Assembly (NCBI GenBank): GCA_949290645.1
Contig: CASESG010000004.1
Location: 10,821-74,820 of the forward strand
Length of the DNA stretch: 64,000 nucleotides
Direction of reading: 5' to 3'
Source of the DNA: an uncultured Bacillota bacterium
GTDB taxonomy: Bacteria > Bacillota_I > Bacilli_A > RFN20 > CAG-288
Shown here: positions 7,817 through 62,778 of the stretch, piece after piece
Position numbering within the stretch: position 1 is the first letter of the stretch
How the letters are laid out: every line of letters begins with the position of its first letter
Translations under genes and position numbers: made by a program
The notes under the pieces: generated by a model
Told to the model about the DNA's origin: nothing
Databases searched by the model: none
What the model saw: the letters and a program-made list of their open reading frames with translations, nothing else

Positions 7817-10741
7817 ATGGATTCTGAAAAGAATTCCCAAACTCCAATGGAGCCCGACTACAAGGCGTATTGCCATACGCCAGAGGAGGTCGTGGACCAT
7901 TTCAAGAGCGATGCGGAGAACGGTCTGACCGCAGAAGAAGTGGAGAAGAGAAGAGCAATCTATGGCCCCAACAAGCTCGAGGAAGGAAAGAAAGTTCCCT
8001 TCATCATCAAGCTTCTCAAACAGTTCATCGAGCCGATGGTCATCGTCTTGCTCATCGCAGCCTTGATCTCGCTTGGCATCTTCATCTTCCACACGGTGCA
8101 AAAGACCGAGTCGGAAGAGTGGATCGACTGCATCGTCATCCTGGCCATCGTCATCATCAACGCCTTGATCGGAGCCATCCAGGAGCAGAAAGCCGAGCAA
8201 TCCCTGGAAGCCCTGAAGAAGCTCTCCTCTCCGACCTGCACCGTCAAGAGAGAAGGAAAGCTCAGTACCATCAAGGCCGAGGAACTCGTCCCGGGTGACA
8301 TCGTCATCCTGGAAGAGGGCGTCATCATCCCGGCCGATGTCCGCCTGTTGACCTCAGTCGACATGAAGTCCGACGAATCCTCCCTCACTGGAGAATCCGT
8401 CCCGGCCGAGAAGGATGCCAAGGCTGTCCTTGGTGAAGACACCGTCATCGGCGACCAGAGCACGATCGGGCACATGTCCTGCCCGATCTCCTACGGCCGC
8501 GGAACCGGAATCGTCATCGCCACCGGCATGAAGACCGAAATGGGCAAGATCGCCGGCATGCTCACCAATGCCGAGGATGAGGAGACCCCACTTCAGAAGA
8601 AGCTGGCGGTCCTCTCCAAGCAACTCGGATTGATCTGTCTCATCATCGTCGTCGCCACCTTCCTCGTCGGTGTCATCGCCGCCATGATCAAGGCCGGAAC
8701 GACTCCCAACGGATGGCAGGAAGGATTCTGGGACAGCGTCTTGGAGCTCTTCGAGAGCGCCATCGCCCTAGCCGTCGCCGCGATTCCGGAAGGGCTCCCG
8801 GCCATCGTCACCATCGCCCTGGCTCTCGGAGTCGGCAAGATGGTCAAGGTCAACACCATCGTCCGCAAGCTTCCTTCGGTCGAGACTCTGGGCTCGGTCA
8901 CGGTCGTCTGCTCCGACAAGACCGGAACCCTGACCCAGAACCGCATGACCGTCAAGAAGGTCTATCAGGACGGCGTCACCTATGATGCGGACAAGGTCGT
9001 CTCTCCCGAATTCCTCGCCACGGGCATGATGCTCTGCTCCAATGCCTCCATCAACGGAGACCGCTATGGCGATCCGACGGAATTGGCTCTTCTCGACTAC
9101 GCCCACACCCTCGGAATCGAGAAGGAAGAGACGGAGAAGGACAAGGAACCCCGTGTCGACGAGCTTCCCTTCGACTCCGTCCGCAAGATGATGTCGACCG
9201 AGAATCTCCGCAGCAATCGCAAGATCATCTATACCAAGGGTGCCCTGGATTCCATCCTCAAGCACACGGAATACATCGACATCAACGGTGAGGTCCGTCC
9301 CATCACAAAGGAAGACATCGACCACATCAACGAGGCTTCCAAGGCGATGGCCTCGGAAGCCTACCGAGTCTTGGCCTTCGCCTATCATTACAACGACTCC
9401 GAAGAGAGGCTTACGGAAGAGCATCTCATCTATAAAGGAATGGTCGGCATGATCGATCCGGAAAGGCCGGAAGCCGCCCCTGCCGTCAGCACCTTCAAGA
9501 AAGCCGGCATCCGCACCGTCATGATCACCGGAGACCACAAGGACACCGCCTTCGCCATCGCCAAGAACCTCGGCATCGCCGATGACATCAGCCAGTGCAT
9601 GAGCGGAGACGAAATCAACGCCCTCGACGAGAAGGGCCTCCAGGAAAAGGTCCAGACCACCAACGTCTTCGCCCGCGTCTCCCCCGAGAACAAGGTTCAG
9701 ATTGTCAAGGCCCTCAAGGCCAACGGAAACATCGTCTCCATGACGGGCGATGGTGTCAACGACGCTCCCTCCCTCAAGGCGGCCGACATCGGCATCGCCA
9801 TGGGCATCACCGGAACCGACGTCGCCAAGAGCGCTGCCGACATGGTCCTGACCGACGACAACTTCGCCTCGATCGAAAAGGCCGTCGAGGAAGGAAGAGG
9901 AATCTTCTCCAACGTCAAGAAGGCCATCTTCTACCTCCTCTCCTCCAACTTCGCGGAGGTCATGGTCATGTTCTTCTTCACCATCCTGACCGCCTTCTCC
10001 AACTATGGCGTCATCCTGCCCCTAGCCACCCTCCACGTCCTCTGGATCAACCTCATCACCGACTCCCTGCCAGCGATCGCCCTTGGCATGGACGACAAGG
10101 AAAAGGGAATCATGGATCAGAAGCCGAGAAATCCGAAGGACGGCGTCTTCGCCCACGGCGGACTCAAGTTCACCTTCTTCTACGGAACGATCATCTTCCT
10201 CATCACGGCCATCGCCTTCTTCCTCCCGGTCCTCCAGCACATGGGCGATACGGAATACTGGTCCTGGTCTTGGGAAGGCTTCTTCAACTGCATGGCCTCC
10301 CAGGACGGAAACGGAAACTTCATCGGCATCCGCTATGAGAACGGCGCCTACTGCCATCAGCTCTTCGAGACCGAAGAGGCCCTCAACAACGCTCAGTTTG
10401 CTGCCGACGGCGGCTGGCTCAACGTCCACGAGCAGGCCCAGACCTTCGCCTTCACCGTCCTTGCCATGGCCCAGATCTTCCACATGATCGGCATGACCGA
10501 CATCAAGCACTCCTTCCTCAACGTCTTCAAGGGAAAGAACTGGATGCTTCTCGTCTCCTTCATCTTCGGCTTCGCCCTGCAGGTCCTTGTCACCGAAGTC
10601 GACGGAATGAACCTCGTCTTCGGAACGACCCACCTCCAATGGTTCGAATGGTTCGAACTTCTCGCCTTCGCCATCATCCCGCTCATCGTCCACGAGATCT
10701 GCGCTCCGATCTTCCGCAAGAGAAACGTCCAGATCATCTAA
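7817..10741 (+). CDS. P2-type cation-transporting ATPase (Ca2+/Mn2+ pump family)
   Basis: 974 aa with TGES, CSDKTGTLT, PEGLP, KGALD, TGDHKDTA and TGDGVNDAPSLK motifs and 10 predicted TM segments. Confidence 0.9.
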   Translation: MDSEKNSQTPMEPDYKAYCHTPEEVVDHFKSDAENGLTAEEVEKRRAIYGPNKLEEGKKVPFIIKLLKQFIEPMVIVLLIAALISLGIFIFHTVQKTESEEWIDCIVILAIVIINALIGAIQEQKAEQSLEALKKLSSPTCTVKREGKLSTIKAEELVPGDIVILEEGVIIPADVRLLTSVDMKSDESSLTGESVPAEKDAKAVLGEDTVIGDQSTIGHMSCPISYGRGTGIVIATGMKTEMGKIAGMLTNAEDEETPLQKKLAVLSKQLGLICLIIVVATFLVGVIAAMIKAGTTPNGWQEGFWDSVLELFESAIALAVAAIPEGLPAIVTIALALGVGKMVKVNTIVRKLPSVETLGSVTVVCSDKTGTLTQNRMTVKKVYQDGVTYDADKVVSPEFLATGMMLCSNASINGDRYGDPTELALLDYAHTLGIEKEETEKDKEPRVDELPFDSVRKMMSTENLRSNRKIIYTKGALDSILKHTEYIDINGEVRPITKEDIDHINEASKAMASEAYRVLAFAYHYNDSEERLTEEHLIYKGMVGMIDPERPEAAPAVSTFKKAGIRTVMITGDHKDTAFAIAKNLGIADDISQCMSGDEINALDEKGLQEKVQTTNVFARVSPENKVQIVKALKANGNIVSMTGDGVNDAPSLKAADIGIAMGITGTDVAKSAADMVLTDDNFASIEKAVEEGRGIFSNVKKAIFYLLSSNFAEVMVMFFFTILTAFSNYGVILPLATLHVLWINLITDSLPAIALGMDDKEKGIMDQKPRNPKDGVFAHGGLKFTFFYGTIIFLITAIAFFLPVLQHMGDTEYWSWSWEGFFNCMASQDGNGNFIGIRYENGAYCHQLFETEEALNNAQFAADGGWLNVHEQAQTFAFTVLAMAQIFHMIGMTDIKHSFLNVFKGKNWMLLVSFIFGFALQVLVTEVDGMNLVFGTTHLQWFEWFELLAFAIIPLIVHEICAPIFRKRNVQII

Positions 10742-10748
10742 GGAATCC

Positions 10749-10787
10749 AAAAACAGCTGTCCAGGCATTGCTGGGCAGCTGTTTTTC
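10749..10787. terminator. Bidirectional terminator between convergent genes
   Basis: AAAAACAGCTGTCCAG / CTGGGCAGCTGTTTTT hairpin, flanked by an A-run on one side and a T-run on the other. Lies between the stops at 10741 (+) and 10804 (-). Confidence 0.75.
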
Positions 10788-10803
10788 TTTGTCTTGATTT
10801 TCC

Positions 10804-13800
10804 TCAGAACAAGGAGCGGTCTCTTCTCAAGATCCTCTGCCAGATGCGATAGCAGTATTCCGTCAGGACGTAATAGCAGAAAAGCATCTGGAAATCAGTG
10901 AAACGAAGGATCCTCTCCTCCTCGAAGCGATAGCGGAAGAGGTAGATGTTGTCTCCCTCAAGATGATCCAATTCCCCTTCCTGGAAGAGGATACGGAAGA
11001 GATATCCGGAATCGATGCGATAGGCCTCCTCCAGCATCGCCTGGAAGTTGGAGAACTCCATGTCATCCGGGAAGATCTCGTGGTATTCCTTCTCAAACGT
11101 CTCCAACAGGGTCTGATAGGTCACGGGATTGGGGAAGAACATCTCCTTGGCCAGGCCCGAAGGCTTGGGAAGGGCAGAGAGAAGCAGGTGTTTCATCTCG
11201 TGGTAGAGCGCATCTTGTCCCTTTCTCAGGGCGAGGTAGACCGTTCTCTTCCAATTGACGATGTCCTCGTGGTTCTCCAGAAGGATTCCCTCTTCCAGAA
11301 GCTCCCTCAGGAAAGGACCGGAATCATAGGGGTCGGAAAGGGTCTTCTTCGTGCGCAGGTAGGAGTCGAAGCAATCGGAGAGAGACCTCTTTTCCAGTTC
11401 CCGGAAGGGGAAAGAAGGCTTCAAGTTCCCCCGCTCCAGGAAGCTCTCCACCAGAGGCAAGGGAAGAAGGCTGTGATGGCAGAAGGAAATGAGTTCGTTG
11501 ACGGTCATCTTGTGGGAGAAGAGCTTGTCGTATTGGGCAATCTTCCAGAAGTTCTCGAAGCTCTTCCGGTCCCGATTGTCCAGGAAGAAGGTTCCCTTCT
11601 CTCCGGTCTTGGAATAGCAGTCGAAGAAAAGGCCGTGGGCGACATAGTATCCGATCTTGGGATCGTAACGGAAGCCGGTCGTGTCCGGAACCTCCTTGTC
11701 AAGAAGGGAAGCGAATCTGGTTCGATAGATGATCGTATTGGTGATGGCCGACACCTGGGAATTGACTTCATGCACCCTCTTTCGACTTCCGCCCTTGAGG
11801 CCGTTGACCTTCCAGACGTTGCCAATCAGATCCATGGCGACATTGACGAAGAGGTCCGGTTCGAGGAAGAAACGGAGATCCTCGCTGGTCTCCTTCGGAA
11901 TGCCTAGAAGACTGGACATCGCAAGGCCGTTCCCATAGATCAGGATACCGTCTTTGAGAGCCTTCCGACGGGCCATCATGGGCAAGAGAATCGGAGAGGA
12001 GAGGATGGCATCCTTGAATTTCGGATTCTCGAAGAAGGATTCCTCCTTGAAGGAAATTCCGTTTTTCAAAGCCAGCTCCAAGGTCGGCCGAGGAAGGCCG
12101 GTATAGGTCAGTCGGCGTTCTTCCGGAAGGAAGCCCGGAGTCTGGAGGACATAGCGGCCAAAGAAAAGAAGCTGTTCCGCATAGCTGCGGCCGTTGAGGA
12201 TCTTCTGGGCCTTCTTCAGCAGCTCCTCGTCTTCCTTGAGGAAGAAGACCTGTCCGTCCTTCACGGAATAGATCGTCCAATCGGTGAGGAAGAAGTGCTG
12301 TCCGTCTCGAAGGACGATCTCTTCTCTCGGAGCATTGTCATAGAAGAGAACAGGCCTTCTTCTCTTTAAGCGACGACGGACGTTCGGAAGCACCTGGGAG
12401 AGGACATGAAGGATCAGAAGCAGGGCCCGGAAAGACAAGAATTGCTGAGGGATGGGTTCGGCGTTGCCCATCTTGAGGGAATAGACATCCACGGAGTTCT
12501 CTCCCGCAAGGATTCGATGGATGGCCTGTTCGTCATGAGAAGAGAATTCGAAAGAGGCGACATCAAGCCGATCTGCCCAGGACTGGATTTCCTTTTCGAT
12601 CTTGGGAAGGATCGGTTTGGCCTTCTCCAGAAAATTCTCTGGTAAAAGGGAGCGGACATGGTCGCTAGCAAAGAGAAGATACTCGCAGTTCAAGGCCGTG
12701 TTGTCCAAGAAGAGCGGGAAGAGACCCTCCCTCACAAGCAGGTGGTGCTGGAAAGGAAGGCTGTCCTTGTTGCGGTAGAGAAGCACCCTTCCGTCGATGA
12801 GGTCGAAGAAGGGAATCTCCTGATCCAGGATGTCGAAGTCGTCGAAGCTGAGCTGATTGAGGAAAGAATCGCTGTCTCCTTCTTGGAAGGAGAAGAAACG
12901 GACCGAATCCAAACAGGCATAAGGGACGCCCATCAGGCGCAAGAACAGCTCCGGATAGATGTACTCGTTTTGATTCCGGCAATACTCCTGCACCTTCTCG
13001 AAGGCGAAACGCAGGGCTTCCTTGTCCTTCCAAGAGAAGCTGTACTTTCCTTTTCTCTCCACGAAGGAGACGACACCATCTTTCTCTTCTTCATAGAGCG
13101 TGGACTTCGCTGTCATGACGAAATTCATGCCGATGGCGACACTGTGGTTGGCATAGGGAAGGGCATCGATTTCCTCATCGAGAACGCTCGGCTTGAAGGC
13201 TTCAGAGAAGGCGAATTTCTCATAGAAGAAACGATTGAGAATACGGCGGATCAGGCAGTTGAAATACTCGAAGAGCATGCCCTGGGCCACCAGTTCCATG
13301 TCATCTTGAGCGGGGGTGGCATAGGCAAAGTAGAACTGCTCTTCCAAATTCTTCGAATCGACGAACTGCCGGAATTTCTCCAGCTCATGGAGGGACTGGA
13401 AGATCGCCTTGTCTCCGAAGGAGAAAAGAAGACGGCTCGCTGTCGCCTTGACAAAGTCCTTCGGAACCTTTCTCTCGTCGCAGAAGGCCGGCAGGAAATC
13501 CTGTCTTTCCATCCCTTCCGTGACGATCAGGTCCAGGTGCGGCATATAGATTCCGTTCTCCAGGAGGTAATCGATGCAGCGCAAGCAGAAATCGTCGTCC
13601 TCCACGATCATCTTCCCGATGTCGTTTCCCTCGAGCCTTAGGTCTTCCTTCTTGATGTCCTTGTCGAAATGGACATGGGGAAGGATGAGATCCAAGAGCT
13701 CCTCTCCGGAAACGCCTTTGTATGGCTGGAAGATGTCCAAGGGAAGGCCGAGATACTGCTTCAGGACCAGAGGGCTATAGGAGTAAGCCAAGCGAATCTG

Positions 13801-14019
13801 ACCGTCGATGTCGATGATGGGATAGGTCTTTTTCTTCAGAACCTGGGTGCGATAGAGATAGAGCCTCTCGAGAAAGGACTCCTTGTCTTCTTCCGCGAGA
13901 TGGAATTCCTTTCCGTCATCGCTGAAGCAATCGTAGAAGGCGCCGAGGTAATAGGTGCGGTACTTGGTGATGGTGTCCTTGGACTTCCGTCCGAGGAATA
14001 GGCTTCGCTGGAAAAGCAT
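10804..14019 (-). CDS. Giant cytoplasmic protein, 1071 aa, no recognisable domain (paralog of the upstream gene)
   Basis: Uninterrupted ORF with host-like codon bias. The ATG at 14019 is 1 nt after the TAG of the preceding gene. No signal peptide, TM segment or P-loop was seen. Patchy similarity to the 14021..17404 product (for example LENGIYMPHLD vs LLSCGIYYPYEDE, and LFLRLMGVPYACL vs LYARLGLPYQGYL). Confidence 0.8.
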   Translation of the reverse strand: MLFQRSLFLGRKSKDTITKYRTYYLGAFYDCFSDDGKEFHLAEEDKESFLERLYLYRTQVLKKKTYPIIDIDGQIRLAYSYSPLVLKQYLGLPLDIFQPYKGVSGEELLDLILPHVHFDKDIKKEDLRLEGNDIGKMIVEDDDFCLRCIDYLLENGIYMPHLDLIVTEGMERQDFLPAFCDERKVPKDFVKATASRLLFSFGDKAIFQSLHELEKFRQFVDSKNLEEQFYFAYATPAQDDMELVAQGMLFEYFNCLIRRILNRFFYEKFAFSEAFKPSVLDEEIDALPYANHSVAIGMNFVMTAKSTLYEEEKDGVVSFVERKGKYSFSWKDKEALRFAFEKVQEYCRNQNEYIYPELFLRLMGVPYACLDSVRFFSFQEGDSDSFLNQLSFDDFDILDQEIPFFDLIDGRVLLYRNKDSLPFQHHLLVREGLFPLFLDNTALNCEYLLFASDHVRSLLPENFLEKAKPILPKIEKEIQSWADRLDVASFEFSSHDEQAIHRILAGENSVDVYSLKMGNAEPIPQQFLSFRALLLILHVLSQVLPNVRRRLKRRRPVLFYDNAPREEIVLRDGQHFFLTDWTIYSVKDGQVFFLKEDEELLKKAQKILNGRSYAEQLLFFGRYVLQTPGFLPEERRLTYTGLPRPTLELALKNGISFKEESFFENPKFKDAILSSPILLPMMARRKALKDGILIYGNGLAMSSLLGIPKETSEDLRFFLEPDLFVNVAMDLIGNVWKVNGLKGGSRKRVHEVNSQVSAITNTIIYRTRFASLLDKEVPDTTGFRYDPKIGYYVAHGLFFDCYSKTGEKGTFFLDNRDRKSFENFWKIAQYDKLFSHKMTVNELISFCHHSLLPLPLVESFLERGNLKPSFPFRELEKRSLSDCFDSYLRTKKTLSDPYDSGPFLRELLEEGILLENHEDIVNWKRTVYLALRKGQDALYHEMKHLLLSALPKPSGLAKEMFFPNPVTYQTLLETFEKEYHEIFPDDMEFSNFQAMLEEAYRIDSGYLFRILFQEGELDHLEGDNIYLFRYRFEEERILRFTDFQMLFCYYVLTEYCYRIWQRILRRDRSLF

Positions 14020-14020
14020 T

Positions 14021-17000
14021 CTATCGTCCTCCCGCCGAAGCGTAATCCATGTATTGTCGGATGACCTTCTCGCCGAGGAAGGTCAGAAATCCCAGGATGC
14101 GGTTCATCACCTCTTCCTTGTTGTCGCAAAGGACAAGGTCGGGGAATTCCTTGAGCAAGGAGAGGTAGAAGTTGTCCTTCGCTCCCAGTTCGTCGTAGAG
14201 GTGATACATCAGGGACTTGTTCTCCTTCCTCTTCTCCTTGACCAACCGGATGGCTTCCTTGCCCGCATCGTCCTTCACGACGTTCAGGAAGTCCTTCGTG
14301 TACTGCTCGAAGAGTTGGTCATCCTCTCCCAGGCACTGCTCCAGGAAATAGTTGTTCTCGTAGGTGAAGGTGTAGAAGAAGGGAATGTGGGCGCTGGAAT
14401 AGGCCGACAGGTCATATCGATAGTTCGGATCGAAGGAGAGGTCGGAGAGGGAATAGTAGAGCGGAAGCAAAAATCCCTGATGGGCCATCTCGTTTCGGGC
14501 ATGGGAGAGCCAGACATCCGGGCCTTGGCAGACGTAGTGGAAAGGATGGTCGGGAGAAGGAACCGGTGTCCTCAGCCTGTAGTTCTGACCCTTGATGTCA
14601 TCCTCGAAGCGGAGCTGCTCGAGGAAGGTCGGGACATTGGTCTGATCGACAGAGACCCCTTTCTTCAGGCAGTCGAGGATGAAAGGAAGAGGGAAGCCGG
14701 AGAGAGCGAGGATGAGAGCCGTCAGCATCACGGGATCTTTCATCTTCGCTTCATAGGAGCGGGCGAAGAAATTCATCGTCTTTTCCATCGCATCCCTATC
14801 CCGGCTGGAGAAGAAGTACTCTCCTCCTTCCTCATCCTGATAGGCATCGAAGATCATTCCCGGACAGATCAGGGGATGCAAGAGGCCTTTGATCGGAATG
14901 GCGTTGAGATAAGTTCCGCTCTCCAGGCCATCGATTTCCTTCTTGGCACAATCGACGGCATAGGCGATCGCCAGGTTCAGATAGAAGCGGGAAAGGCGGA
15001 GGAAGACCTGAGGGGCCGCCATAAGCATCTCCGGAGTCTGCCTGTCCGTCCCGAGGACCATCCCATAGGTGAAGTGGTCTTGATCGTTCCTCAGGCTGAG
15101 GAGCTGATCCATTCCGCTTTCCAGGATCAGGAAGTCCCCGTCATAGAGAGCCAACACGGCCGCGATCGCCTGATAAGGCATCTGCAGGTAATCGTCGATT
15201 TTCGGATCGCTCAGTCCCCTGTCTCCCGGGAAGAGTCCTTCGAAGGCCGCCGTGAAATAGCGATTCTGGATCTCGTCCAGGGTCGGAAGGGAGAAGGGAG
15301 ACTGGGGAAGATAGACCCCGTGCCTAGCCCCGCAAGCCCGGACATAGGTGAACAGTTCGTTCACCTTCTGGAAGGAGTAGCCATCCGCCGTCTCATGGCG
15401 CAGAGGAATCGCATCGCGACAGAGATGGCAGATGGAGTCGTGGAAGGGAAGCTGGGGAAGGAGAGGCCTGTCGTATTTCAGAAGAGGCAAGAGGATCTTC
15501 GGAAGTCCGAGGCGATCGACCAGGTAATGGTTGAAGTCGACAAGGTCGATCTTGTTCTTCGGGGAGAAAGCCTGGTGCATCCTCTGATAGATTTCCCCAT
15601 AGTGACGGGCCGCCTTCTCGATGCTCTCCCTCTGACAGGAGCAGAGATAGGGTTTCGAGAAGAGATCGAGCTGAAAGGCATAACCATAGAAACCGAAGGA
15701 GACATACGGGGCGGGTAGGTTCTTCTCATAGGACTGATCGGGATTCTCCTTTCGGTCGAGGATCGCCAGGGCCTGCCATTGGTTGGACAGAGCGAGCTTG
15801 TCCCGGAATTCCTCCCGCGCGGATTCGATGAGACGGGAGAAGAGATAATGAAAGAAATCCATGCACTCGTCGGAAGGGGACTCGACCGGGAATTGCTCCA
15901 AAAGGAAATAGACGTTCTCCTCGATCGTCTCGCCCGTGAAGGACTCGAAGAAGAAACGGCAGGCCATCTCGTCGGAGACCTTGTCGAGCTCTTCCAGGAA
16001 GGCCTTCAAGGACGGGAATTCCGGAATCCCTTTCTTCAGGCAATAGGGGAAGTAATAATCCATCAAGGGACATCTCGCCTTGTCGAAGATCTTCTTCAGC
16101 TCCTCATTTCTCTTCGTGCTGGGATGGACGATGATGCAATATCCCTCTTCTTTGTCCGTGGCCGGGAAGAGGGAATAATCGATTCCCTCATCCAAGAGCA
16201 ACCTTTCGAGATAAGATTCGAGATGTTCTTTGCTTTGATCATCGACACAGCCGAGGATATCGACTCTCTTATAAGAAGAATAATCTCCAATCGGATAGAC
16301 GATTTCTTTCCTGAAATCCAGCTTCCTGATCAAGTTCTCGGAAGTGACGTCCTTCTTTGTGAGAAGCTGCAGATAGCCTTGATAGGGAAGGCCAAGACGG
16401 GCGTAGAGGACCGGAAGGGGAAAATGCGGATTCTCCAGCATCGTCACTTCGGAAAGATAGGAGATTCTCTTCTTCGCGCTCTCCGGGAAGAAATACTTCT
16501 TTCCGTCGACGCTGTACATGTCCGAGACGAATCCCGGATAGGAGAGAAGGTCTCTCTGAGGAACCTTCTTGGGAAGGAAGAAATTCTCCACGGAAGGATC
16601 CTGCTTGATTCTCATCCTCATATACTTGTCCTTGCAGATCTGGATCAGCCCAAGGACAAAGCACCGCAGCATGTTGGAATAGTCTTTTCGAAGCGCCTCG
16701 TTCGTGCCAGCGACGCTATCGAGCTTTTCGTCCTCCGAGCCGTCCAGGAAGTAGAGCAGAAGCTCGTTGAGGGAAAAGCCATCGAATCTCTTGGCATAGC
16801 GATAGCGTCTCTCGTCCGCTTCCCGAGAGAGGATGTCGATCATCAGACGGTCGGCGGAGAAGCTCTCATAGGCCTTCTTCAAGTCGCCTTCCAGGCGGTC
16901 CTCGTCGATGAAGACCGGAAGCTCGGCGTAGTAGTCCAAAAAGCTCTCCTCGTCCTCATAGGGATAGTAGATTCCACAGGAGAGCAGATAGCTCCGGAAA

Positions 17001-17404
17001 TCCCGGAGATACCAGTCCTTCCCCTGGGGAGAGTATTCCAGATAGCCGACCTCCTTTTTCCGCTCGAGAAGGTCATCCCGGAAGGTGACATAGTGGATAA
17101 TGTCTTCCTTCTTCCTCAGCTCCCTCAAAGGGGCCGGAAGGCCATAGAAGTAGAGGAGGGTCTTCTTCTCGTCCGATGGGAAATAACGGATTCCATGGGG
17201 AGTTTCCAAGGGAAGAAGAGGGATCTTGGGCAAGAACTTCCTTCCCATGTCCAGGATCGCCTCCAATCCTCCCCGGTCGAAGGAGTCCATGCAGAGAATC
17301 CCTGCCTTATTTTCCCGGAAACAGACGAAGTTCCTTCCGACTTCCGCTTCCTGATAACCCGTCAAAGCATCCAACTCTTGTAATTTTGAAAAAAATTCAC
17401 TCAT
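14021..17404 (-). CDS. Giant cytoplasmic protein, about 1127 aa, no recognisable domain
   Basis: Start was re-picked at ATG 17404 (MSEFFSKLQ), which forms an ATGA overlap with the stop of the metalloprotease gene. Contains Cys/His clusters (CSCQRE...PFHDSICHLCRD). No TM segment or signal peptide. Confidence 0.8.
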   Translation of the reverse strand: MSEFFSKLQELDALTGYQEAEVGRNFVCFRENKAGILCMDSFDRGGLEAILDMGRKFLPKIPLLPLETPHGIRYFPSDEKKTLLYFYGLPAPLRELRKKEDIIHYVTFRDDLLERKKEVGYLEYSPQGKDWYLRDFRSYLLSCGIYYPYEDEESFLDYYAELPVFIDEDRLEGDLKKAYESFSADRLMIDILSREADERRYRYAKRFDGFSLNELLLYFLDGSEDEKLDSVAGTNEALRKDYSNMLRCFVLGLIQICKDKYMRMRIKQDPSVENFFLPKKVPQRDLLSYPGFVSDMYSVDGKKYFFPESAKKRISYLSEVTMLENPHFPLPVLYARLGLPYQGYLQLLTKKDVTSENLIRKLDFRKEIVYPIGDYSSYKRVDILGCVDDQSKEHLESYLERLLLDEGIDYSLFPATDKEEGYCIIVHPSTKRNEELKKIFDKARCPLMDYYFPYCLKKGIPEFPSLKAFLEELDKVSDEMACRFFFESFTGETIEENVYFLLEQFPVESPSDECMDFFHYLFSRLIESAREEFRDKLALSNQWQALAILDRKENPDQSYEKNLPAPYVSFGFYGYAFQLDLFSKPYLCSCQRESIEKAARHYGEIYQRMHQAFSPKNKIDLVDFNHYLVDRLGLPKILLPLLKYDRPLLPQLPFHDSICHLCRDAIPLRHETADGYSFQKVNELFTYVRACGARHGVYLPQSPFSLPTLDEIQNRYFTAAFEGLFPGDRGLSDPKIDDYLQMPYQAIAAVLALYDGDFLILESGMDQLLSLRNDQDHFTYGMVLGTDRQTPEMLMAAPQVFLRLSRFYLNLAIAYAVDCAKKEIDGLESGTYLNAIPIKGLLHPLICPGMIFDAYQDEEGGEYFFSSRDRDAMEKTMNFFARSYEAKMKDPVMLTALILALSGFPLPFILDCLKKGVSVDQTNVPTFLEQLRFEDDIKGQNYRLRTPVPSPDHPFHYVCQGPDVWLSHARNEMAHQGFLLPLYYSLSDLSFDPNYRYDLSAYSSAHIPFFYTFTYENNYFLEQCLGEDDQLFEQYTKDFLNVVKDDAGKEAIRLVKEKRKENKSLMYHLYDELGAKDNFYLSLLKEFPDLVLCDNKEEVMNRILGFLTFLGEKVIRQYMDYASAGGR

Positions 17405-18957
17405 GCGATTTCCTCGAAATAAAGTCGGCATGTATCGTCATTCATCATGCTTTCGACCTCGAATCCATAGAGAGGACGGCTTCCCTCGTCGAAGAGGAAT
17501 TCCTCATACGTCCCTCCCGAGAGAAGGAAGGAATCCCCGTTCTGGTAGAGAGCGGAATTGCTCGCCATCTGATTGGCGACAAACCTCGTCTTCCTCCCGC
17601 TTTCGGGAAGAAGGGAGAGCAGTCTTCCTCGATAATACGAGCTATTCGTATCATCGATCCGAGTGTCGAAGCAATAGGAGCGGGTGTTGGAGTAGATGTA
17701 GTAGAAGAGATAGTTCTGAGAGCTGGCGACAGGGATACGGTCATAGGAACAGCCATCCCAGAGAAGACCCTGAACGCCCGTGAGAGAAGGAACCAGCTTT
17801 CCGATGCGGGCATTGACGTGATAGACCAGGATTCCCGATTCCGTGAACATGCTCAGCTGGTTCTGGTAAGGGATGCGGGCATCCTGGGCGTTGATCCCAG
17901 TCGGCGTGTAGTACTCGACGATCAGATACTCGTCGAACGGCGTCCCGTTGAAGTCGACCTGTCCGTCCTTCCCGATTGGAAGGATCAAGCACTCTCCCGT
18001 CTCCTCGAAGGAAGAGAGGGTCAAGACATCGTCGTTCTGGTCGAGAAGTTCCTTCGTCACGACGATCGGATCGACCCAGGAGAGCAGATATTTGGAGAAG
18101 GCGTCGTGGTCCCCGATGTTGTAGTCCATCATCATCGCCCCGCCGGTAGGAGAATCGACGTTCGACCCTCCGGCATCATAGGAATAGTAGTCGTCCAGTC
18201 CCATCAAGTGCCCCGTCTCATGGATGAAGGTGTGCCCGTCCCCGTTGTACACGCTGCCATAGGAAAGATAGTTTCCTTCCTCCAGAAAGTCGATCGAAGC
18301 CCAGGAGTAGGAGCAGGCCTTGAGACCGGAGTACGTCGACCGGGAACTCGACCAGCTCGTGAAGGCCCAAAGAAGGTCTGAGCTTGAATCGAAGGGCGAG
18401 GAGTAGACCATCCACACCGCGTCGAGATAGCCGTCATCGTTGCTGTCGAAGGAGGAGAGGTCCATCTCCTTCGAGAGCTTCTCCAGGCTCTGGTCGAGGA
18501 CATTCTCCGTGAATGTGGTCGCATCCATGCGCTCCGCATCCTCGGTCGTGACACGAAGGGAGATCGGCGAGGTGACTTCCCCGGAGATGTGAAGATTCCC
18601 GTAGCTTGATTTCTCGTAGTAGGAAGAGACCGACTCCCAGCCCGTCTGGGCCGAAGTGCCGAAAAAGGTGTTGTCCAGACGCAGCAGATCGTCCGAATCG
18701 AAGGGGCTGTCGGCGAATTGAATGGGGATGACAAGGATGCGGGCATCCCCGAAGTGAGGCATATAAATCTGTCCGTTCCAGGCACCGACATTCTCGACCG
18801 TGAGATTCTCGCTTCGATCGTTCGGACCATACTTCGGTTCCAAGTATCCGATGCCTCCCGTTGGGGAGAGGGTCGAGGAGACAAAAGGCAGGTGGAAGTC
18901 ACAGGAGACAAGAAGGGGGAAAGAGAGGATCAAAAGCAGAGGTTTCTTCTTTCCCAT
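17401..18957 (-). CDS. M6 (immune-inhibitor-A-like) metalloprotease-domain lipoprotein
   Basis: Start MGKKKPLLLILSFPLLVSC gives a lipobox (LVSC). A zinc motif HTFIHETGHLMGLDDYY (HExxH...D.Y) is present. The track ORF is over-extended to 19086. Confidence 0.75.
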   Translation of the reverse strand: MGKKKPLLLILSFPLLVSCDFHLPFVSSTLSPTGGIGYLEPKYGPNDRSENLTVENVGAWNGQIYMPHFGDARILVIPIQFADSPFDSDDLLRLDNTFFGTSAQTGWESVSSYYEKSSYGNLHISGEVTSPISLRVTTEDAERMDATTFTENVLDQSLEKLSKEMDLSSFDSNDDGYLDAVWMVYSSPFDSSSDLLWAFTSWSSSRSTYSGLKACSYSWASIDFLEEGNYLSYGSVYNGDGHTFIHETGHLMGLDDYYSYDAGGSNVDSPTGGAMMMDYNIGDHDAFSKYLLSWVDPIVVTKELLDQNDDVLTLSSFEETGECLILPIGKDGQVDFNGTPFDEYLIVEYYTPTGINAQDARIPYQNQLSMFTESGILVYHVNARIGKLVPSLTGVQGLLWDGCSYDRIPVASSQNYLFYYIYSNTRSYCFDTRIDDTNSSYYRGRLLSLLPESGRKTRFVANQMASNSALYQNGDSFLLSGGTYEEFLFDEGSRPLYGFEVESMMNDDTCRLYFEEIA

Positions 18958-18958
18958 G

Positions 18959-19657
18959 TCAATCACCGTAGTCCGAGCCACGGCTCTTGTCCTCGACCAG
19001 GACCTTGCAGAGGTCGGCGATATCCATTGCGGAGAGATAGATGGCCCCCTCGGTCTCGACCAGAGGGTTGTCGTAATGTCCGACAAAGACGACCTTGCGA
19101 TTCTTCTTCACGATTTCGTCCATCTTGTCGAGAAGTTTCTGGTAGCTTTCCGGACGAAGCATCTTATAGCCTTGAAGATAAGTGTAGAACTGCGGTTCGA
19201 TATAGAAAACAGAGCCGTCCGGATTGCGGTAGCAAGTCGCAAAGCGATTTCTCAAATCAATCAGGACATCTCGGTCCTTCCATTCCTCATAGTGTTTCAT
19301 CTTTTTCTCCTTCTCTTCCTCCAACAGGAGGATCGCACACTCGAAGCTTCTCTTCAGCCACAGGATGTCTTCTCTCAAGGACTGCGTCTTGATCTCAAGG
19401 CAAGAACAATCGCAGAGAGAGGGCAACGGCTTCAAAACAGAGAGGACATCGCCTTTCCCTTCTTGCAGAAGGTGGCGACAGCTCTCGATCTCCTTGATTC
19501 TCTCCTCATAGTCGAATTGAGGAGAGAACGGCTTTTTTCCGTGTTCCTTTCGGGAAAGTAGCTTCTGGAGCATCCCGAGGCAGGGAAGAAGGGAAAGAAG
19601 AAGCATCTCACTTTCCCCCTTTGCCTGGCATGCCCTCTTCCAATATTCGTCTCTCAT
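18959..19657 (-). CDS. Hypothetical protein (232 aa) with a CDCSC cluster
   Basis: Host-like codon usage, ATGA overlap with the upstream gene (19654-19657), and a stop 1 nt before the next ATG. No family recognised. Confidence 0.6.
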   Translation of the reverse strand: MRDEYWKRACQAKGESEMLLLSLLPCLGMLQKLLSRKEHGKKPFSPQFDYEERIKEIESCRHLLQEGKGDVLSVLKPLPSLCDCSCLEIKTQSLREDILWLKRSFECAILLLEEEKEKKMKHYEEWKDRDVLIDLRNRFATCYRNPDGSVFYIEPQFYTYLQGYKMLRPESYQKLLDKMDEIVKKNRKVVFVGHYDNPLVETEGAIYLSAMDIADLCKVLVEDKSRGSDYGD

Positions 19658-19992
19658 CCTTCCTCCACAAGCTCGTGAAGATGGAGAAGAAACTTCTCGT
19701 CTTCCCTAAGCTTCTCCTTCACGGCCTTTTCCTTGGCCTTCTCTTTCAGCTCCCCGACAAAGGAGAGGACTTCCCCATAGCCTTGTTCCAGCTCCGGAAG
19801 AAGTCTTTCCTTCTCTTCCTTCGAGGCGAGGAAATAGTCTCCGTCCAAGTCCATCATCCGGAAGAGGAGGGAAGAATACCTCTCCCTTCTTTCCTCTTCC
19901 AGCAAGTTGACATAGGCCAGAAGGGAGCAGAAGCAGGCACTTCCGCAGTAGCAGTTGGACGTCGGGCATTCCATCTTCTCCAGGATCGTCAT
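19654..19992 (-). CDS. Hypothetical small protein (112 aa), N-terminal Cys-rich (CPTSNCYCGSACFC), C-terminal Glu/Lys-rich helix
   Basis: ATGA overlaps on both sides (19989-19992 with cobB, 19654-19657 with the next gene). No family recognised. Confidence 0.55.
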   Translation of the reverse strand: MTILEKMECPTSNCYCGSACFCSLLAYVNLLEEERRERYSSLLFRMMDLDGDYFLASKEEKERLLPELEQGYGEVLSFVGELKEKAKEKAVKEKLREDEKFLLHLHELVEEG

Positions 19993-20723
19993 CGGATGCC
20001 TCCGAAGAGCTCCCCGACGTTCTGATGAAGGACGAGGTCGGCTCTTTCGTCTTCCTTCTCCGGGTTCCGGTCGATCAGGATCAGCTCTCTTCCCTGGAAA
20101 TAGTTGAGGAAGGAAGCGGCCGGATAGACGACAAGAGAGGTTCCCGCCACGATCAGGAGGTCAGCCTCGGAGATGGCGATCATCGCCTTGGTCATGACAT
20201 GGACATCCAGGCTCTCCTCATAGAGGACGACATCCGGCTTGATCACGCCTCCGCAATGCGGACAACGTGGGACAAGGGTCGGGCAATTTTTCACGAAGGT
20301 TCCGTCATAGAAGCGGGAGCAGTCCTCGCAATAGTTCCTCAAGATCGACCCGTGAAGCTCGATGACGTTCTTGCTTCCGGCCTTCTGATGGAGACCGTCG
20401 ATGTTCTGCGTGACGATCGCAGAGAGCTTTCCTCTCTTCTCGAGCTCGGCCAAGGCAAGGTGGCAGGGATTGGGCTTGGCATCCAGGACAAGCATCCTCT
20501 CCCGATAGAAACGGAAGAACTCCTCCTTGTTTTGCTCGTAAAAGTGATGGGAGATGATCTCCTCCGGGTCGTAGGCATACTTCTGGTGATAGAGTCCGTC
20601 CTTGCTCCGGAAGTCCGGGATTCCCGATTCCGTAGAGACCCCCGCCCCGCCAAAAAAGACGACGTTCCGACTGCTGTCGATGGCCTCCTGGAGAATCTTC
20701 CGGTCGTGTTCCAGAGAGTTCAT
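19989..20723 (-). CDS. cobB: NAD-dependent protein deacylase (Sir2/CobB family)
   Basis: Start was re-picked at ATG 20723 (MNSLEHDRK). Motifs: GAGVSTESGIPDFRS, QNIDGLH, and Zn-ribbon CEDC...CPHCGG. 244 aa. Confidence 0.9.
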   Translation of the reverse strand: MNSLEHDRKILQEAIDSSRNVVFFGGAGVSTESGIPDFRSKDGLYHQKYAYDPEEIISHHFYEQNKEEFFRFYRERMLVLDAKPNPCHLALAELEKRGKLSAIVTQNIDGLHQKAGSKNVIELHGSILRNYCEDCSRFYDGTFVKNCPTLVPRCPHCGGVIKPDVVLYEESLDVHVMTKAMIAISEADLLIVAGTSLVVYPAASFLNYFQGRELILIDRNPEKEDERADLVLHQNVGELFGGIR

Positions 20724-20790
20724 TCCGCTTGTCCCAGTCACAACAATATTATAGACAAAAAAGGCCTTTTTTCTATCTCGGCAAGACGAG

Positions 20791-20816
20791 AAAAGGGGCT
20801 GTCCGAAGACAGCCCC
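20791..20816 (-). terminator. Rho-independent terminator of nifJ
   Basis: On the minus strand, GGGGCTGTC-ttcg-GACAGCCCC is followed by TTTT, 23 nt after the nifJ stop. Confidence 0.8.
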
Positions 20817-20838
20817 CAAAAGAGCGAAGATTGTCGGA

Positions 20839-24450
<3,612 letters not shown>

Positions 24451-38825: not shown

Positions 38826-38841
38826 CGTGCTTTCCTCCTTG

Positions 38842-46163: not shown

Positions 46164-46164
46164 C

Positions 46165-48941: not shown

Positions 48942-48978
48942 TCAGAAAAAGCGAAAGAACGATCCTCGCTCTCCTGAT

Positions 48979-49653: not shown

Positions 49654-49674
49654 GATTTCTTTCTCCTTTCTTGC

Positions 49675-50445: not shown

Positions 50446-50583
50446 AGTGTTCTCCTTTATGTCTATAGCCAATATAAGATTAGGATACATTTGACCGCTG
50501 GAATCGTCAAATCGCTTTCAAGCTCGAAGACAGATAATGACGCGGCTTTTCGGCCAAGATTGTAAAATTTCCAGAAATCCAGA

Positions 50584-50592
50584 CCCCCCCCC
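50584..50592. repeat. Homopolymeric C9 (G9 on the operon strand), about 140 nt upstream of the first operon gene
   Basis: Read directly: aga ccccccccc gac at 50581-50595. No ORF crosses it. Confidence 0.95.
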
Positions 50593-53234: not shown

Positions 53235-53429
53235 AGGCCGAATCTAGTGAAATAGATGTCTGCTAGTCTCAAGTAAAATCTAAAATTGATACGTTTTAAA
53301 TTTTCAAAGCAAAATTAAGTAATTTAAAGAATTATATTATGAAAGCATCTTCTGATAGTTTTGTTAAATCAAACGTTTCATAATCTTACCATTTTGCACG
53401 GATGAGAAATACATAATAACGATTATGGG

Positions 53430-56296: not shown

Positions 56297-56297
56297 C

Positions 56298-62435: not shown

Positions 62436-62443
62436 GCAATCAA

Positions 62444-62774: not shown

Positions 62775-62778
62775 TCGA

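What the first reader, a model, noticed from the sequence alone, without database searches (positions are those of the whole stretch)
10804..20723. Unexplained six-gene operon: cobB, two Cys-cluster proteins, an M6-like protease lipoprotein, and two giant proteins
Seen directly: the chain is tightly coupled. There are ATGA overlaps at 19989, 19654 and 17401, and 1-nt spacers at 18958 and 14020. It lies downstream of the nifJ terminator and a TATAAT at 20748-20753. It ends at the bidirectional terminator at 10749-10787.

A canonical short Sir2 deacylase is co-translated with four proteins of unknown family and one exported metalloprotease. This mixture of cytoplasmic and extracytoplasmic products has no counterpart I recognise. 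A link to protein-modification regulation or to a defence function is speculative.
Basis: partly seen in the sequence, partly recalled or inferred. Interest (0 to 1): 0.6.

Follow-up and report, generated by a model that had tools for sequence, protein, structure and literature searches.

The report
Clade-specific operon with giant repeat proteins
A tightly packed operon is conserved in about 40 species of uncultured, wall-less gut bacteria; it joins an ordinary sirtuin, three small proteins, a surface zinc protease and two giant proteins built from four copies of a module otherwise found in phage homing-endonuclease-like proteins, and its five unknown proteins fit no described family or system.

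Summary
A minus-strand chain at 20723..10804 has ATGA overlaps or 1-nt spacers, one promoter-like site and strong hairpins at both ends.

The six ORFs correspond to seven ancestral genes: cobB, C112, N119, S113, a zincin lipoprotein (PROT), giant B (GB) and giant A (GA). N119 and S113 are fused in this genome.

The block keeps its order in 38 further species of uncultured RFN20-type Bacilli, which are predicted to lack peptidoglycan. Flanking genes differ between species. The cobB-to-next-gene 4-nt overlap is kept in 34 of 39 species.

New findings:
- GA and GB are paralogues (hhalign E 6e-42). Each is four tandem ~275-residue units.
- GB unit 3 carries a conserved CxC...CHxC site.
- The same unit occurs singly in phage, plasmid and island proteins, fused to a Hef-like homing-endonuclease domain that GA and GB lack.
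- S113 is the best-conserved part (75% identity against 27% for the giants). Its confident model matches no known fold.

Pfam, NCBIfam, PADLOC, PHROGs, PDB and Foldseek assign nothing to the five unknown proteins. The "Cys-cluster" label is not supported.

Function remains inferred. I favour a cytoplasmic multi-subunit scaffold built from domesticated modules and co-expressed with CobB. A defence role is unlikely.

The parts
20794..20817 (-). Hairpin plus T-run terminator of the upstream nifJ (PFOR) gene. It marks the upstream boundary of the unit.
   Evidence: 10-bp stem, 7 GC pairs; sequence read.
20748..20775 (-). Promoter-like site TAGAAA-16 nt-TATAAT, 24 nt upstream of the cobB ATG.
   Evidence: 10 of 12 matches; the only minus-strand match in 10600-21000. 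This is a consensus match only.
19989..20723 (-). cobB: a 244-aa CobB-type NAD-dependent protein deacylase (catalytic His124, Zn ribbon CEDC...CPHC).
   Evidence: Its stop overlaps the next start (ATGA) here and in 34 of 39 species.
19654..19992 (-). C112: a 112-aa acidic, unclassified protein. The family motif is YYCGSACFLSL; it is ~155-165 aa in most relatives.
   Evidence: No Pfam, NCBIfam, PADLOC or PDB match.
19301..19657 (-). N119: the N-terminal 119 residues of the 232-aa ORF. It is a separate gene in most relatives. Conserved motif: LP..x..KLxxRKxxGKxPFS.
18959..19300 (-). S113: the C-terminal 113 residues of the 232-aa ORF. It is the most conserved component, with FYIEPxFY and an invariant disordered tail EDKSRGSDYGD.
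   Evidence: AF2 model pLDDT 89.7. No fold match in PDB or BFVD.
17401..18957 (-). PROT: a 518-aa lipoprotein zincin. The lipobox is LVSC (Cys19, nt 18903..18901). The active-site motif is HETGHLMGLDDYY (His246 at nt 18222), followed by an MMD Met-turn-like motif.
14021..17404 (-). Giant B (GB), 1127 aa: four tandem ~275-aa units. R1 is aa 17-290 (nt 17356..16535), R2 is 290-565 (16537..15710), R3 is 565-843 (15712..14876) and R4 is 843-1120 (14878..14045).
15419..15643 (-). Putative Zn site of GB unit 3: Cys588-x-Cys590 (nt 15643..15635) and Cys659-His660-x-Cys662 (nt 15430..15419).
   Evidence: C588, C659, H660 and C662 are conserved in at least 90% of 42 orthologues. This is the region shared with phage gp29-type proteins.
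10804..14019 (-). Giant A (GA), 1071 aa: a paralogue of giant B with the same four-unit plan (units start near aa 10, 290, 560 and 780). It has no conserved Cys set.
10749..10786 (.). Bidirectional terminator hairpin (16-bp stem) shared with the convergent P-type ATPase gene (7817..10741, plus strand).

Best explanation
SHOWN. This is a genuine, translationally coupled operon. It is a vertically inherited, single-copy core feature of one clade of uncultured RFN20-type Bacilli (relatives of Candidatus Enterosoma; these lineages are predicted to lack peptidoglycan).

SHOWN. The six ORFs here are seven ancestral genes: cobB, C112, N119, S113 (N119 and S113 are fused in this genome), an M6-like zinc-protease lipoprotein, giant B and giant A.

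SHOWN. The two giants are paralogues. Each consists of four tandem copies of a ~275-residue unit. Unit 3 of giant B, and unit 4 in most other species, carries a CxC...CHxC site. Elsewhere the same unit occurs once or twice per protein in phages, plasmids and genomic islands. There it usually precedes a Hef-like homing-endonuclease domain, which the giants lack.

INFERRED.
- The giants are domesticated arrays of a mobile-element recognition module. They form a large cytoplasmic GA-GB assembly that acts as a multivalent binding scaffold, with nucleic acid or another repetitive ligand as the most likely partner. They are not enzymes.
- C112, N119 and S113 are its small subunits or adaptors. They are found fused to one another in different pairs in different species.
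- CobB is made in fixed proportion with them, because one of these proteins, or the assembly, is controlled by lysine acylation.
- The surface protease is co-expressed with S113 and the giants for a reason that is not yet clear.
- The unit probably consists of two sub-operons (cobB-C112-N119 and S113-PROT-GB-GA) that are joined in this genome by the gene fusion.
For: Operon:
- Junctions, a single promoter-like site and terminal hairpins.
- The same order in 38 further species with at least 8 upstream and 10 downstream neighbour families.
- Junction spacing conserved: cobB to next gene is -4 in 34 of 39 species, S113 to PROT is mostly -1..+5, PROT to GB mostly -4..+2, and GB to GA -1..+6.

Core and vertical:
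- One copy per locus. In 36 of the 38 further loci where both giants were found, every family appears, allowing for fusions; one lacks cobB (L032) and one lacks C112 and N119 (L033).
- Identities fall together across species.

Lineage: Ca. Enterosoma, uncultured Bacilli or 'Mollicutes' MAGs. [quoted passage not shown]

Paralogy and repeats:
- Cross-profile E 1e-16 to 1e-37.
- hhalign GB against GA: probability 100%, E 6e-42, 933 columns.
- GB self-matches at offsets of ~270 aa (E 2e-21) and ~548 aa (E 1e-12).

Unit as a stand-alone family:
- (E 1.9e-25 to unit 3, 7e-15 to unit 4).
- The GB family HMM hits Clostridium phage phiCT19406A gp29 (42.7 bits). gp29 lies just upstream of the terminase small subunit.
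- Full-length relatives occur on plasmids, beside integrases, a satellite-like capsid module, Abi_2, or an Nhi/PDC-S41-like helicase.
- Their C-terminal domain matches 307 phage records. Where named, these are homing or HNH endonucleases, including Hef-like F-LimIII.
- No such domain is present in the window or in any related locus.

Scaffold rather than enzyme:
- No Pfam hit in 30 orthologues.
- Conserved positions are mainly aromatic, Gly, Pro and the Zn ligands.
- Giants are ~27% identical across the clade while the neighbouring nifJ is 82%.

Cytoplasmic: no signal peptide, and the only hydrophobic stretch is the helix before the recurring LGLP motif.

Small proteins as one complex: C112+N119 are fused in two gene forms (237-240 aa and 268-269 aa), and N119+S113 are fused here and in L012 and L016.
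Against: - No experiment, expression data or usable structure exists for the giants. The AF2 model had pLDDT 51.5 from a 4-sequence alignment.
- Ligand binding by the unit is inferred only from its position in homing-endonuclease-like proteins. The giants are acidic (net -43 and -28), which does not favour DNA binding.
- S113 occurs without the rest of the block in about 27 more distant species. There it sits behind gdpP-rplI-dnaB-MBL(-rlmH), so it has a function independent of the giants.
- An exported protease in the middle of a cytoplasmic complex is not explained.
- One species lacks the adjacent cobB (L032) and one lacks C112 and N119 (L033).
- Small genomes often pack unrelated genes into one operon.
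Confidence: 0.5

Rival explanations
1. Co-transcription without shared function. cobB is a housekeeping deacylase that merely shares a promoter with lineage-specific genes, and the block is two or three unrelated modules packed together in a reduced genome.
For: - cobB passes a housekeeping equivalog model.
- S113 exists in a different housekeeping context in ~27 other species.
- The N119-S113 spacer varies up to 167 nt, and L047 has an 8.6-kb insertion there.
- L032 lacks cobB and L033 lacks C112 and N119.
Against: - The cobB-to-next-gene 4-nt overlap is the most strictly kept junction (34 of 39 species).
- The block survives at least 8 different upstream and 10 downstream contexts, at a divergence where the giants are only 27% identical. 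Gene order without selection rarely lasts that long (general knowledge).
Confidence: 0.2
2. Surface or host-interaction system. The fast-evolving giants are exported by an unrecognised route in these wall-less cells and are processed or displayed together with the lipoprotein protease.
For: - The giants evolve very fast (27% against 82% for nifJ).
- The protease is a conserved lipoprotein.
- The hosts are wall-less gut bacteria.
- In L047, surface-protein genes are inserted within the block.
Against: - No signal peptide, transmembrane segment or lipobox in either giant.
- A conserved Cys/His zinc site and 2% Cys point to the cytoplasm (inference).
- No transporter in the block.
Confidence: 0.12
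3. An anti-phage or anti-mobile-element defence system. The giant proteins act as sensors derived from mobile-element modules, with a sirtuin and/or protease as effector.
For: - Stand-alone relatives of the unit sit in phages, plasmids and islands, next to Abi_2, SNIPE/T5orf172 or an Nhi/PDC-S41-like helicase.
- SIR2 domains are common defence effectors (general knowledge).
- The giants evolve fast.
Against: - PADLOC gives no significant match for any of the six proteins (best E 0.01).
- The sirtuin is CobB-type, has a Zn ribbon and is 65% conserved.
- The protease is extracellular.
- No NTPase or nuclease domain.
- The block is present once in every species examined and tracks the species, rather than being patchy.
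Confidence: 0.1
4. A RiPP or bacteriocin cluster. A Cys-rich precursor peptide (C112) would be matured by the giants and cleaved by the protease.
For: - A weak PHROG match of C112 to a 'bacteriocin production or immunity' family (E 0.007).
- An N-terminal Cys-rich motif in this genome.
Against: - The Cys residues are not conserved across the family; L037 has none.
- C112 is 155-165 aa in most species and is fused to N119 in some.
- There is no maturase-type domain, transporter or immunity gene.
Confidence: 0.02

Closest known systems
CobB-type (class U/III) bacterial sirtuins, such as E. coli CobB and B. subtilis SrtN (named from my own knowledge)
   Same: The first gene has the SIR2 domain, catalytic His, Zn ribbon and size of these enzymes. 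It passes the NCBIfam deacylase equivalog NF001752.
   Different: To my knowledge these enzymes are not described as translationally coupled to a set of unknown proteins, a lipoprotein protease and giant repeat proteins.
Sirtuin operons that encode the sirtuin's own substrate or partners, such as SirTM with GcvH-L, LplA2 and a macrodomain protein in Staphylococcus and Streptococcus (recalled from memory; not tested here)
   Same: A sirtuin is co-transcribed with small proteins that could be its targets. This is the logic behind the inferred role of CobB here.
   Different: That sirtuin belongs to another class (an ADP-ribosyltransferase), and its partners have recognisable domains. None of those domains is present here.
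Free-standing phage homing-endonuclease-like proteins of the phiCT19406A gp29 type, whose C-terminal domain is related to Hef-like endonucleases (F-LimIII; PMC3296691)
   Same: They share the ~275-residue unit with the CxC...CHxC site and the LGLP motif.
   Different: Those proteins have one or two units plus a nuclease domain and sit in mobile elements. GA and GB have four units each and no nuclease domain, and they are chromosomal core genes of one clade.
M6 (immune inhibitor A) and M7 (snapalysin) zincins
   Same: They share the HEXXHxxGxxD motif with a following Met-containing turn. The protease gives a TIGR03296 M6-domain match at 6e-24 and matches the snapalysin motif.
   Different: The score is below the curated cut-off (85.5 against 110.8 bits). 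There is no significant Pfam M6 hit for the window protein. The protein has a lipoprotein anchor and an unassigned ~150-aa C-terminal part.
SIR2-based defence systems (Thoeris ThsA, DSR1/DSR2, SIR2-HerA, SIR2-pAgo)
   Same: A SIR2-domain protein lies next to very large proteins.
   Different: There is no significant PADLOC match. The sirtuin is CobB-type. The block is core and vertically inherited, not accessory.
Large cytoskeletal proteins of wall-less Mollicutes, such as the Mycoplasma pneumoniae HMW proteins (analogy from my own knowledge only)
   Same: They are large, acidic, fast-evolving, lineage-restricted cytoplasmic proteins in bacteria without a wall.
   Different: No sequence or structural relationship was found or tested. 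The Mycoplasma proteins are rich in coiled coils and proline repeats, not in Zn-binding ~275-aa units.

Membership tests
Sir2/CobB NAD-dependent protein deacylase | SIR2 catalytic domain at a curated score | tested here: met
   Pfam PF02146 gives 7e-54 and 182.9 bits against a cut-off of 24. NCBIfam equivalog NF001752 gives 312.4 bits against a cut-off of 221.
Sir2/CobB NAD-dependent protein deacylase | Catalytic His and a four-Cys zinc ribbon | tested here: met
   His124 (ELHGS), Cys132/135 and Cys154/157 are each conserved in at least 90% of 37 orthologues.
Sir2/CobB NAD-dependent protein deacylase | NAD-dependent lysine deacylation activity | not testable with these tools
   This needs an enzyme assay.
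SIR2-based anti-phage defence systems (Thoeris, DSR, SIR2-HerA, SIR2-pAgo) | Match to the defence-type SIR2 or partner models | tested here: not met
   In PADLOC the best E-values are 0.01-0.06 for cobB. The giants, protease and C112 give none, and the 232-aa ORF only a chance-level 0.018.
SIR2-based anti-phage defence systems (Thoeris, DSR, SIR2-HerA, SIR2-pAgo) | Patchy, accessory distribution in defence islands | tested here: not met
   The block is present once in 39 of 39 clade species with enough contig. Identities track the species, and the neighbours are housekeeping genes such as nifJ and P-type ATPases.
Peptidase M6 (immune inhibitor A) | HEXXH zinc site with a downstream Asp ligand | tested here: met
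   The motif is HETGHLMGLDD at residues 246-256. H246, E247, H250 and D256 are invariant in 20 homologues.
Peptidase M6 (immune inhibitor A) | Family model at a curated score | tested here: not met
   TIGR03296 scores 85.5 bits against a cut-off of 110.8. Pfam PF05547 is absent for the window protein, and an orthologue scores 16.9 bits against 22. 'M6-like' is the most that can be said.
Bacterial lipoprotein | N-terminal signal sequence with a lipobox Cys | tested here: met
   The N-terminus reads MGKKKPLLLILSFPLLVSC. L16, S18 and C19 are conserved in at least 90% of 53 homologues.
RiPP / bacteriocin gene cluster | Conserved precursor core plus a recognisable maturase and transporter | tested here: not met
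   The Cys motif is not conserved. There is no maturase or transporter domain.
gp29-type / Hef-like homing-endonuclease-like proteins | N-terminal ~275-aa unit with CxC...CHxC | tested here: met
   hhalign gives E 1.9e-25 for GB unit 3 and 7e-15 for unit 4. The GB family HMM scores 42.7 bits against phage gp29.
gp29-type / Hef-like homing-endonuclease-like proteins | C-terminal homing-endonuclease domain | tested here: not met
   A profile of that domain finds nothing at E<=10 in any ORF of the window or of the 80+ related loci. GA and GB are therefore relatives of the unit, not members of the endonuclease family.
FTCD_C cyclodeaminase-like helical domain (considered for C112 and N119 by eye) | Profile match to the family | tested here: not met
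   No Pfam FTCD_C hit in 22 members at E<=1, and no PDB hit.

The most novel reading that the evidence does not exclude
The block encodes a previously undescribed cellular machine of wall-less RFN20 gut bacteria. Two giant paralogues, assembled from eight domesticated copies of a homing-endonuclease recognition module, would form with three small subunits a lysine-acylation-controlled complex. That complex would act on nucleic acid or on the cell envelope. This would be a case of a mobile-element DNA-targeting domain being recruited and multiplied into a core host structure.
Probability: 0.25. Interest if true: 0.8.

Novelty: categorically new. Interest (0 to 1): 0.58.

Why it matters
RFN20-type Bacilli are common in human, poultry and ruminant guts. 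They are uncultured, have genomes of about 1-1.4 Mb and are predicted to lack a cell wall. About 10 kb of such a small genome is spent on a block that every examined species of the clade keeps, so the block is likely to matter for how these cells work. Five of its seven protein families are unassigned.

The analysis gives concrete handles for further work:
- a new ~275-residue zinc-binding unit shared with phage homing-endonuclease-like proteins;
- a clear example of that unit being multiplied eight-fold into host core proteins;
- a very conserved 113-residue protein with no known fold match;
- a conserved physical coupling of a CobB sirtuin to candidate partners, which could point to sirtuin substrates in this lineage.

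'Categorically new' here means that the block cannot be assigned to any described system. It does not mean that a new mechanism has been demonstrated.

Tried and rejected
1. Family libraries. Pfam, NCBIfam, PADLOC and PHROGs on all six window proteins gave nothing for the five unknowns beyond chance-level hits. Pfam on 30 giant orthologues gave 0 families.

2. PDB sequence searches. Profiles of GB, GA, the C112 family and the protease gave nothing useful. The best hits were tubulin chaperone A at E 0.004 (compositional) and a snapalysin motif at E 0.16.

3. Structure. S113 modelled well (pLDDT 89.7), but Foldseek found no match at E<=0.001 in PDB (best 0.35) or BFVD (best 0.27). The giant B model was poor (pLDDT 51.5, only 4 usable sequences), and its Foldseek hits are meaningless.

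4. A mixed GA+GB profile search meant to harvest sequences for modelling returned only 3 proteins, because of the candidate cap.

5. The idea that C112 and N119 are FTCD_C-like (seen by eye) found no support.

6. The idea that S113 is a free copy of the start of the giant unit gave hhalign E 0.044 at 1% probability, so it is not supported.

7. The C-terminal domain of the single-unit relatives was not recognised by Pfam or PDB sequence search. It was identified only through phage record annotations.

8. Window giant B unit 3 gave no direct tblastn hit in phages. The link holds at profile level only.

9. The transmembrane reading of the GB 892-910 hydrophobic stretch was rejected. It is the helix preceding the LGLP motif, which recurs in every unit.

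10. Net charge of the units is not informative on DNA binding.

11. Rfam found no RNA element in the window.

Full report
**1. Observation**

Six ORFs lie head to tail on the minus strand:

| ORF | Coordinates | Length |
|---|---|---|
| cobB | 20723..19989 | 244 aa |
| C112 | 19992..19654 | 112 aa |
| fused ORF | 19657..18959 | 232 aa |
| protease (PROT) | 18957..17401 | 518 aa |
| giant B (GB) | 17404..14021 | 1127 aa |
| giant A (GA) | 14019..10804 | 1071 aa |

- I read the junctions directly. There are ATGA overlaps at 19992-19989, 19657-19654 and 17404-17401, and single-base spacers at 18958 and 14020. A GGAGG-like ribosome-binding site precedes four of the five downstream genes; the protease has only GGTGA.
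- A consensus scan of 10600-21000 finds one minus-strand promoter-like site, TAGAAA-16-TATAAT at 20775..20748.
- The same scan finds only two strong hairpin-plus-T sites, at 20817..20794 (after nifJ) and 10749..10786. The remaining terminator-like hits are at chance level.
The longest-ORF starts at 19086 and 17431 are not the likely starts.

**2. Components**

- *cobB* is a canonical CobB-type sirtuin. It scores Pfam SIR2 7e-54 and passes the NCBIfam deacylase equivalog NF001752 (312 bits against 221). It has the catalytic His and a CxxC...CxxC zinc ribbon.
- *The protease* starts MGKKKPLLLILSFPLLVSC, and its lipobox Cys is conserved in at least 90% of 53 homologues.
  - It carries HETGHLMGLDDYY followed by MMD.
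  - It matches the M6 domain model TIGR03296 at 6e-24, but below the curated cut-off.
  - Its motif resembles snapalysin.
  - 'M6-like zincin lipoprotein' is the most that can be said.
- *The other four ORFs* have no significant match in Pfam, NCBIfam, PADLOC, PHROGs or PDB sequences.

**3. The 232-aa ORF is a gene fusion, and the 'Cys clusters' do not hold up**

- In the nearest other species (L001, L002) the 232-aa region is two genes of 119-121 aa and 113 aa. I call them N119 and S113.
- The CDCSC motif of the window protein is absent from those relatives.
- The C112 motif CPTSxCYCGSACFC is invariant only among close relatives.
- Family-wide the C112 motif is YYCGSACFLSL. Only Gly17, Asp50, Phe54 and Phe101 reach 90% conservation, and one species has no Cys there.

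**4. Distribution and synteny**

- Giant B has only three near relatives by word-seeded search.
- An exhaustive profile search finds 38 full-length representatives, all 1106-1138 aa.
- S113 is much better conserved: 65 clusters at 45-87% identity.
- A scan of one genome per GTDB species finds S113 in 71 species. All are uncultured Bacilli, labelled Candidatus Enterosoma, 'Mollicutes', CAG:288 and similar.
- Ca. Enterosoma belongs to order RFN20. [quoted passage not shown]
- I called ORFs in all loci and searched them with profiles of the seven families.
  - In the 38 further species where both giants are found, the order cobB-C112-N119-S113-PROT-GB-GA is kept.
  - Neighbours fall into at least 8 upstream and 10 downstream families.
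  - The only deviations are fusions, one locus without cobB (L032), one without C112 and N119 (L033), and one with an 8.6-kb insertion between N119 and S113 (L047).
- Junction spacing is conserved:

| Junction | Spacing |
|---|---|
| cobB to next gene | 4-nt overlap in 34 of 39 species |
| S113 to PROT | mostly -1..+5 |
| PROT to GB | mostly -4..+2 |
| GB to GA | -1..+6 |
| N119 to S113 | variable, up to 167 nt |

- The variable N119-S113 spacer suggests two sub-operons. They are welded together here by the fusion.

**5. Rates of change**

Median identity to the window proteins across the clade:

| Protein | Median identity |
|---|---|
| neighbouring nifJ | 82% |
| S113 | 75% |
| cobB | 65% |
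| PROT | 47% |
| C112 | 37% |
| N119 | 33% |
| GA | 28% |
| GB | 27% |

The giants keep their length and architecture while their sequence drifts very fast.

**6. Architecture of the giants**

- GA and GB are paralogues. Cross-profile E-values are 1e-16 to 1e-37. hhalign gives probability 100% and E 6e-42 over 933 columns.
- GB aligns to itself at offsets of about 270 residues (E 2e-21) and 548 residues (E 1e-12). It is therefore four tandem ~275-residue units. GA shows the same plan more weakly.
- Each unit starts with a beta-rich segment ([YF]..G..[YF].[AF][YF]) and a long helix, followed by an LGLP motif.
- In unit 3 of GB, Cys588, Cys659, His660 and Cys662 are conserved in at least 90% of orthologues.
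- Most species have a second set of such residues in unit 4. The window protein has lost it (Ser866).
- The remaining conserved positions are mostly aromatic, Gly and Pro.
- There is no signal peptide or convincing transmembrane segment. The hydrophobic stretch at 892-910 is the helix before the LGLP of unit 4.

**7. The unit outside this clade**

- The GB profile also hit short hypothetical proteins from Erysipelotrichales, other Bacilli, Anaerovibrio and a Methanoplasma archaeon.
- hhalign of these proteins against the GB family gives E 1.9e-25 for unit 3, 7e-15 over 237 columns for unit 4, and 4.5e-5 for unit 1. Against GA units it gives 1e-7 to 6e-5.
- Their contexts are mobile or defence-like:
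  - next to an integrase and a SNIPE/T5orf172 nuclease;
  - in an integrase-AAA_25-capsid element;
  - near Abi_2;
  - for a two-unit protein, directly upstream of a helicase matching PADLOC PDC-S41 (4e-16) and Nhi (2e-12).
- A full-length relative (35% identity) is gp29 of Clostridium tetani phages phiCT19406A and phiCTC2A. It lies just upstream of the terminase small subunit. The GB family HMM hits gp29 directly at 42.7 bits.
- Full-length relatives also occur on Haladaptatus and B. thuringiensis plasmids.
- The ~110-residue C-terminal domain of these proteins matches 307 phage records.
  - Where named, these are HNH or homing endonucleases, group I intron proteins or F-LimIII.
  - F-LimIII is classed as Hef-like (PMC3296691).
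- A profile of that C-terminal domain finds nothing in the window or in any related locus.
- The giants are therefore arrays of the non-nuclease part of a homing-endonuclease-like protein family.

**8. The small proteins**

- S113 gives a confident AlphaFold model (pLDDT 89.7, pTM 0.81). It has three strands, two helices, two strands, a helix and a disordered tail.
- That tail, EDKSRGSDYGD, is nearly invariant even at 45% overall identity.
- Foldseek finds no match at E<=0.001 in PDB or BFVD.
- In about 27 more distant species S113 is not next to any other block gene. It follows gdpP-rplI-dnaB-MBL(-rlmH) instead.
- In a CAG:288 genome it sits between a C112-like gene and three protease paralogues.
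- In L005 a 236-aa gene that weakly matches C112 (E 3e-4) precedes it.
- C112+N119 are fused in two gene forms (237-240 aa and 268-269 aa), and N119+S113 are fused in the window, L012 and L016. Such fusions are the usual sign of physical partnership; that reading is an inference.

**9. Mechanism**

*Shown:* one conserved, translationally coupled block; the paralogy and repeat structure of the giants; the kinship of the unit with mobile-element proteins; the absence of a nuclease domain; a CobB-type sirtuin; a lipoprotein zincin.

*Inferred:*
- GA and GB form a large cytoplasmic multivalent scaffold derived from a target-recognition module.
- The three small proteins are its subunits.
- CobB is co-translated because acylation controls the assembly.

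The role of the extracellular protease is unexplained.

I put 0.5 on this model. The rivals are:

| Rival | Confidence | Main reason for the low value |
|---|---|---|
| Mere co-transcription | 0.2 | the cobB junction and block order are kept despite high divergence |
| Surface or host-interaction system | 0.12 | no export signal on the giants |
| Defence system | 0.1 | no PADLOC match, housekeeping-type sirtuin, core vertical distribution, no NTPase or nuclease |
| RiPP cluster | 0.02 | Cys not conserved, no maturase or transporter |

**10. Comparison and novelty**

- The individual known parts are ordinary members of known kinds.
- The block as a whole, and five of its seven families, could not be placed in any described family or system by any library or fold search available here.
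- I rate it 'categorically new' in the sense of unassignable, not in the sense of a proven new mechanism.
- Interest is moderate to high (0.58).
  - In its favour: the eight-fold domestication of a homing-endonuclease module into core proteins of wall-less gut bacteria, the fold-orphan S113, and the conserved sirtuin coupling are surprising and testable.
  - Against it: function is unknown and the organisms are uncultured.

Noticed in passing
window 37012-50490, minus strand: This is a second long chain of closely spaced or overlapping minus-strand ORFs, mostly without any Pfam or NCBIfam hit: 39936-42359 (807 aa), 42356-44461 (701 aa), 44781-46163 and 46165-47979 (604 aa; weak McrB-like AAA hit, E 2e-4). 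It also includes a SipW/archaeal-type signal peptidase I at 47976-48941 (TIGR02228, 54 bits against a cut-off of 51.85). GC content is ~0.6 and long antisense ORFs are present, so gene calls there need care.
   Followed up: partly
window 30109-33081 and 34328-37000, minus strand: Two more large ORFs (990 and 890 aa) have no Pfam or NCBIfam match. They are not paralogues of giant A or B.
   Followed up: partly
L050-L080 (for example L062 4735-10333): In about 27 more distant RFN20-type species, the S113 gene sits at the end of a gdpP(DHH)-rplI-dnaB-MBL-fold(walJ-like)(-rlmH) cluster. None of the other block genes is nearby. This gives a second, mutually exclusive conserved context for this very conserved small protein.
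   Followed up: partly
L051 9375-14770 (Clostridium sp. CAG:288): The order here is patatin-like gene, a 186-aa gene that looks C112-like by eye (no profile hit at E<0.05), S113, then three tandem paralogues of the zincin lipoprotein. There are no giants and no cobB. This suggests that the S113-protease link is older than the giants.
   Followed up: partly
L047 1526-9681: An 8.6-kb insertion lies between N119 and S113. It carries, on the opposite strand, a 1304-aa gene that by eye looks like a subtilisin-type lipoprotein, a 782-aa Cys-repeat membrane protein and a 414-aa gene with a Walker-A-like motif; none of the three was run against a family library. This is the only place where the block is split.
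   Followed up: no
L083 4222-7815: A two-unit relative of the giant-protein module (580 aa) is followed after 3 nt by a 615-aa SLFN-g3/ResIII helicase that matches PADLOC PDC-S41 (4e-16) and Nhi (2e-12). This is a possible two-gene defence cassette, inserted next to ars-type resistance genes (HTH_5 regulator, SBF-type permease, LMWPc phosphatase).
   Followed up: partly
L086 5001-6089 (Clostridium phage phiCT19406A gp29): This 'hypothetical protein' is a one-unit protein with a Hef-like endonuclease domain, located directly upstream of the terminase small subunit. That is the position where I recall packaging-associated HNH or homing endonucleases usually lying (own knowledge, not tested). Its N-terminal domain family appears to be undescribed.
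   Followed up: partly
L006 7423-8248; L008 6061-7275, and about ten other loci: Two or three small zinc-ribbon/TM2 (DUF4190-type) membrane protein genes often lie just upstream of cobB on the same strand in relatives. In the window, nifJ is the direct upstream neighbour instead.
   Followed up: no
window 50001-54000 and 62001-64000: GC content drops to 0.40-0.44 in these stretches, against 0.50-0.61 elsewhere. In 56-62 kb, strong purine skew (AT skew 0.2-0.3) coincides with gyrB (56247-58460) and gyrA (58473-61073) on the plus strand.
   Followed up: no
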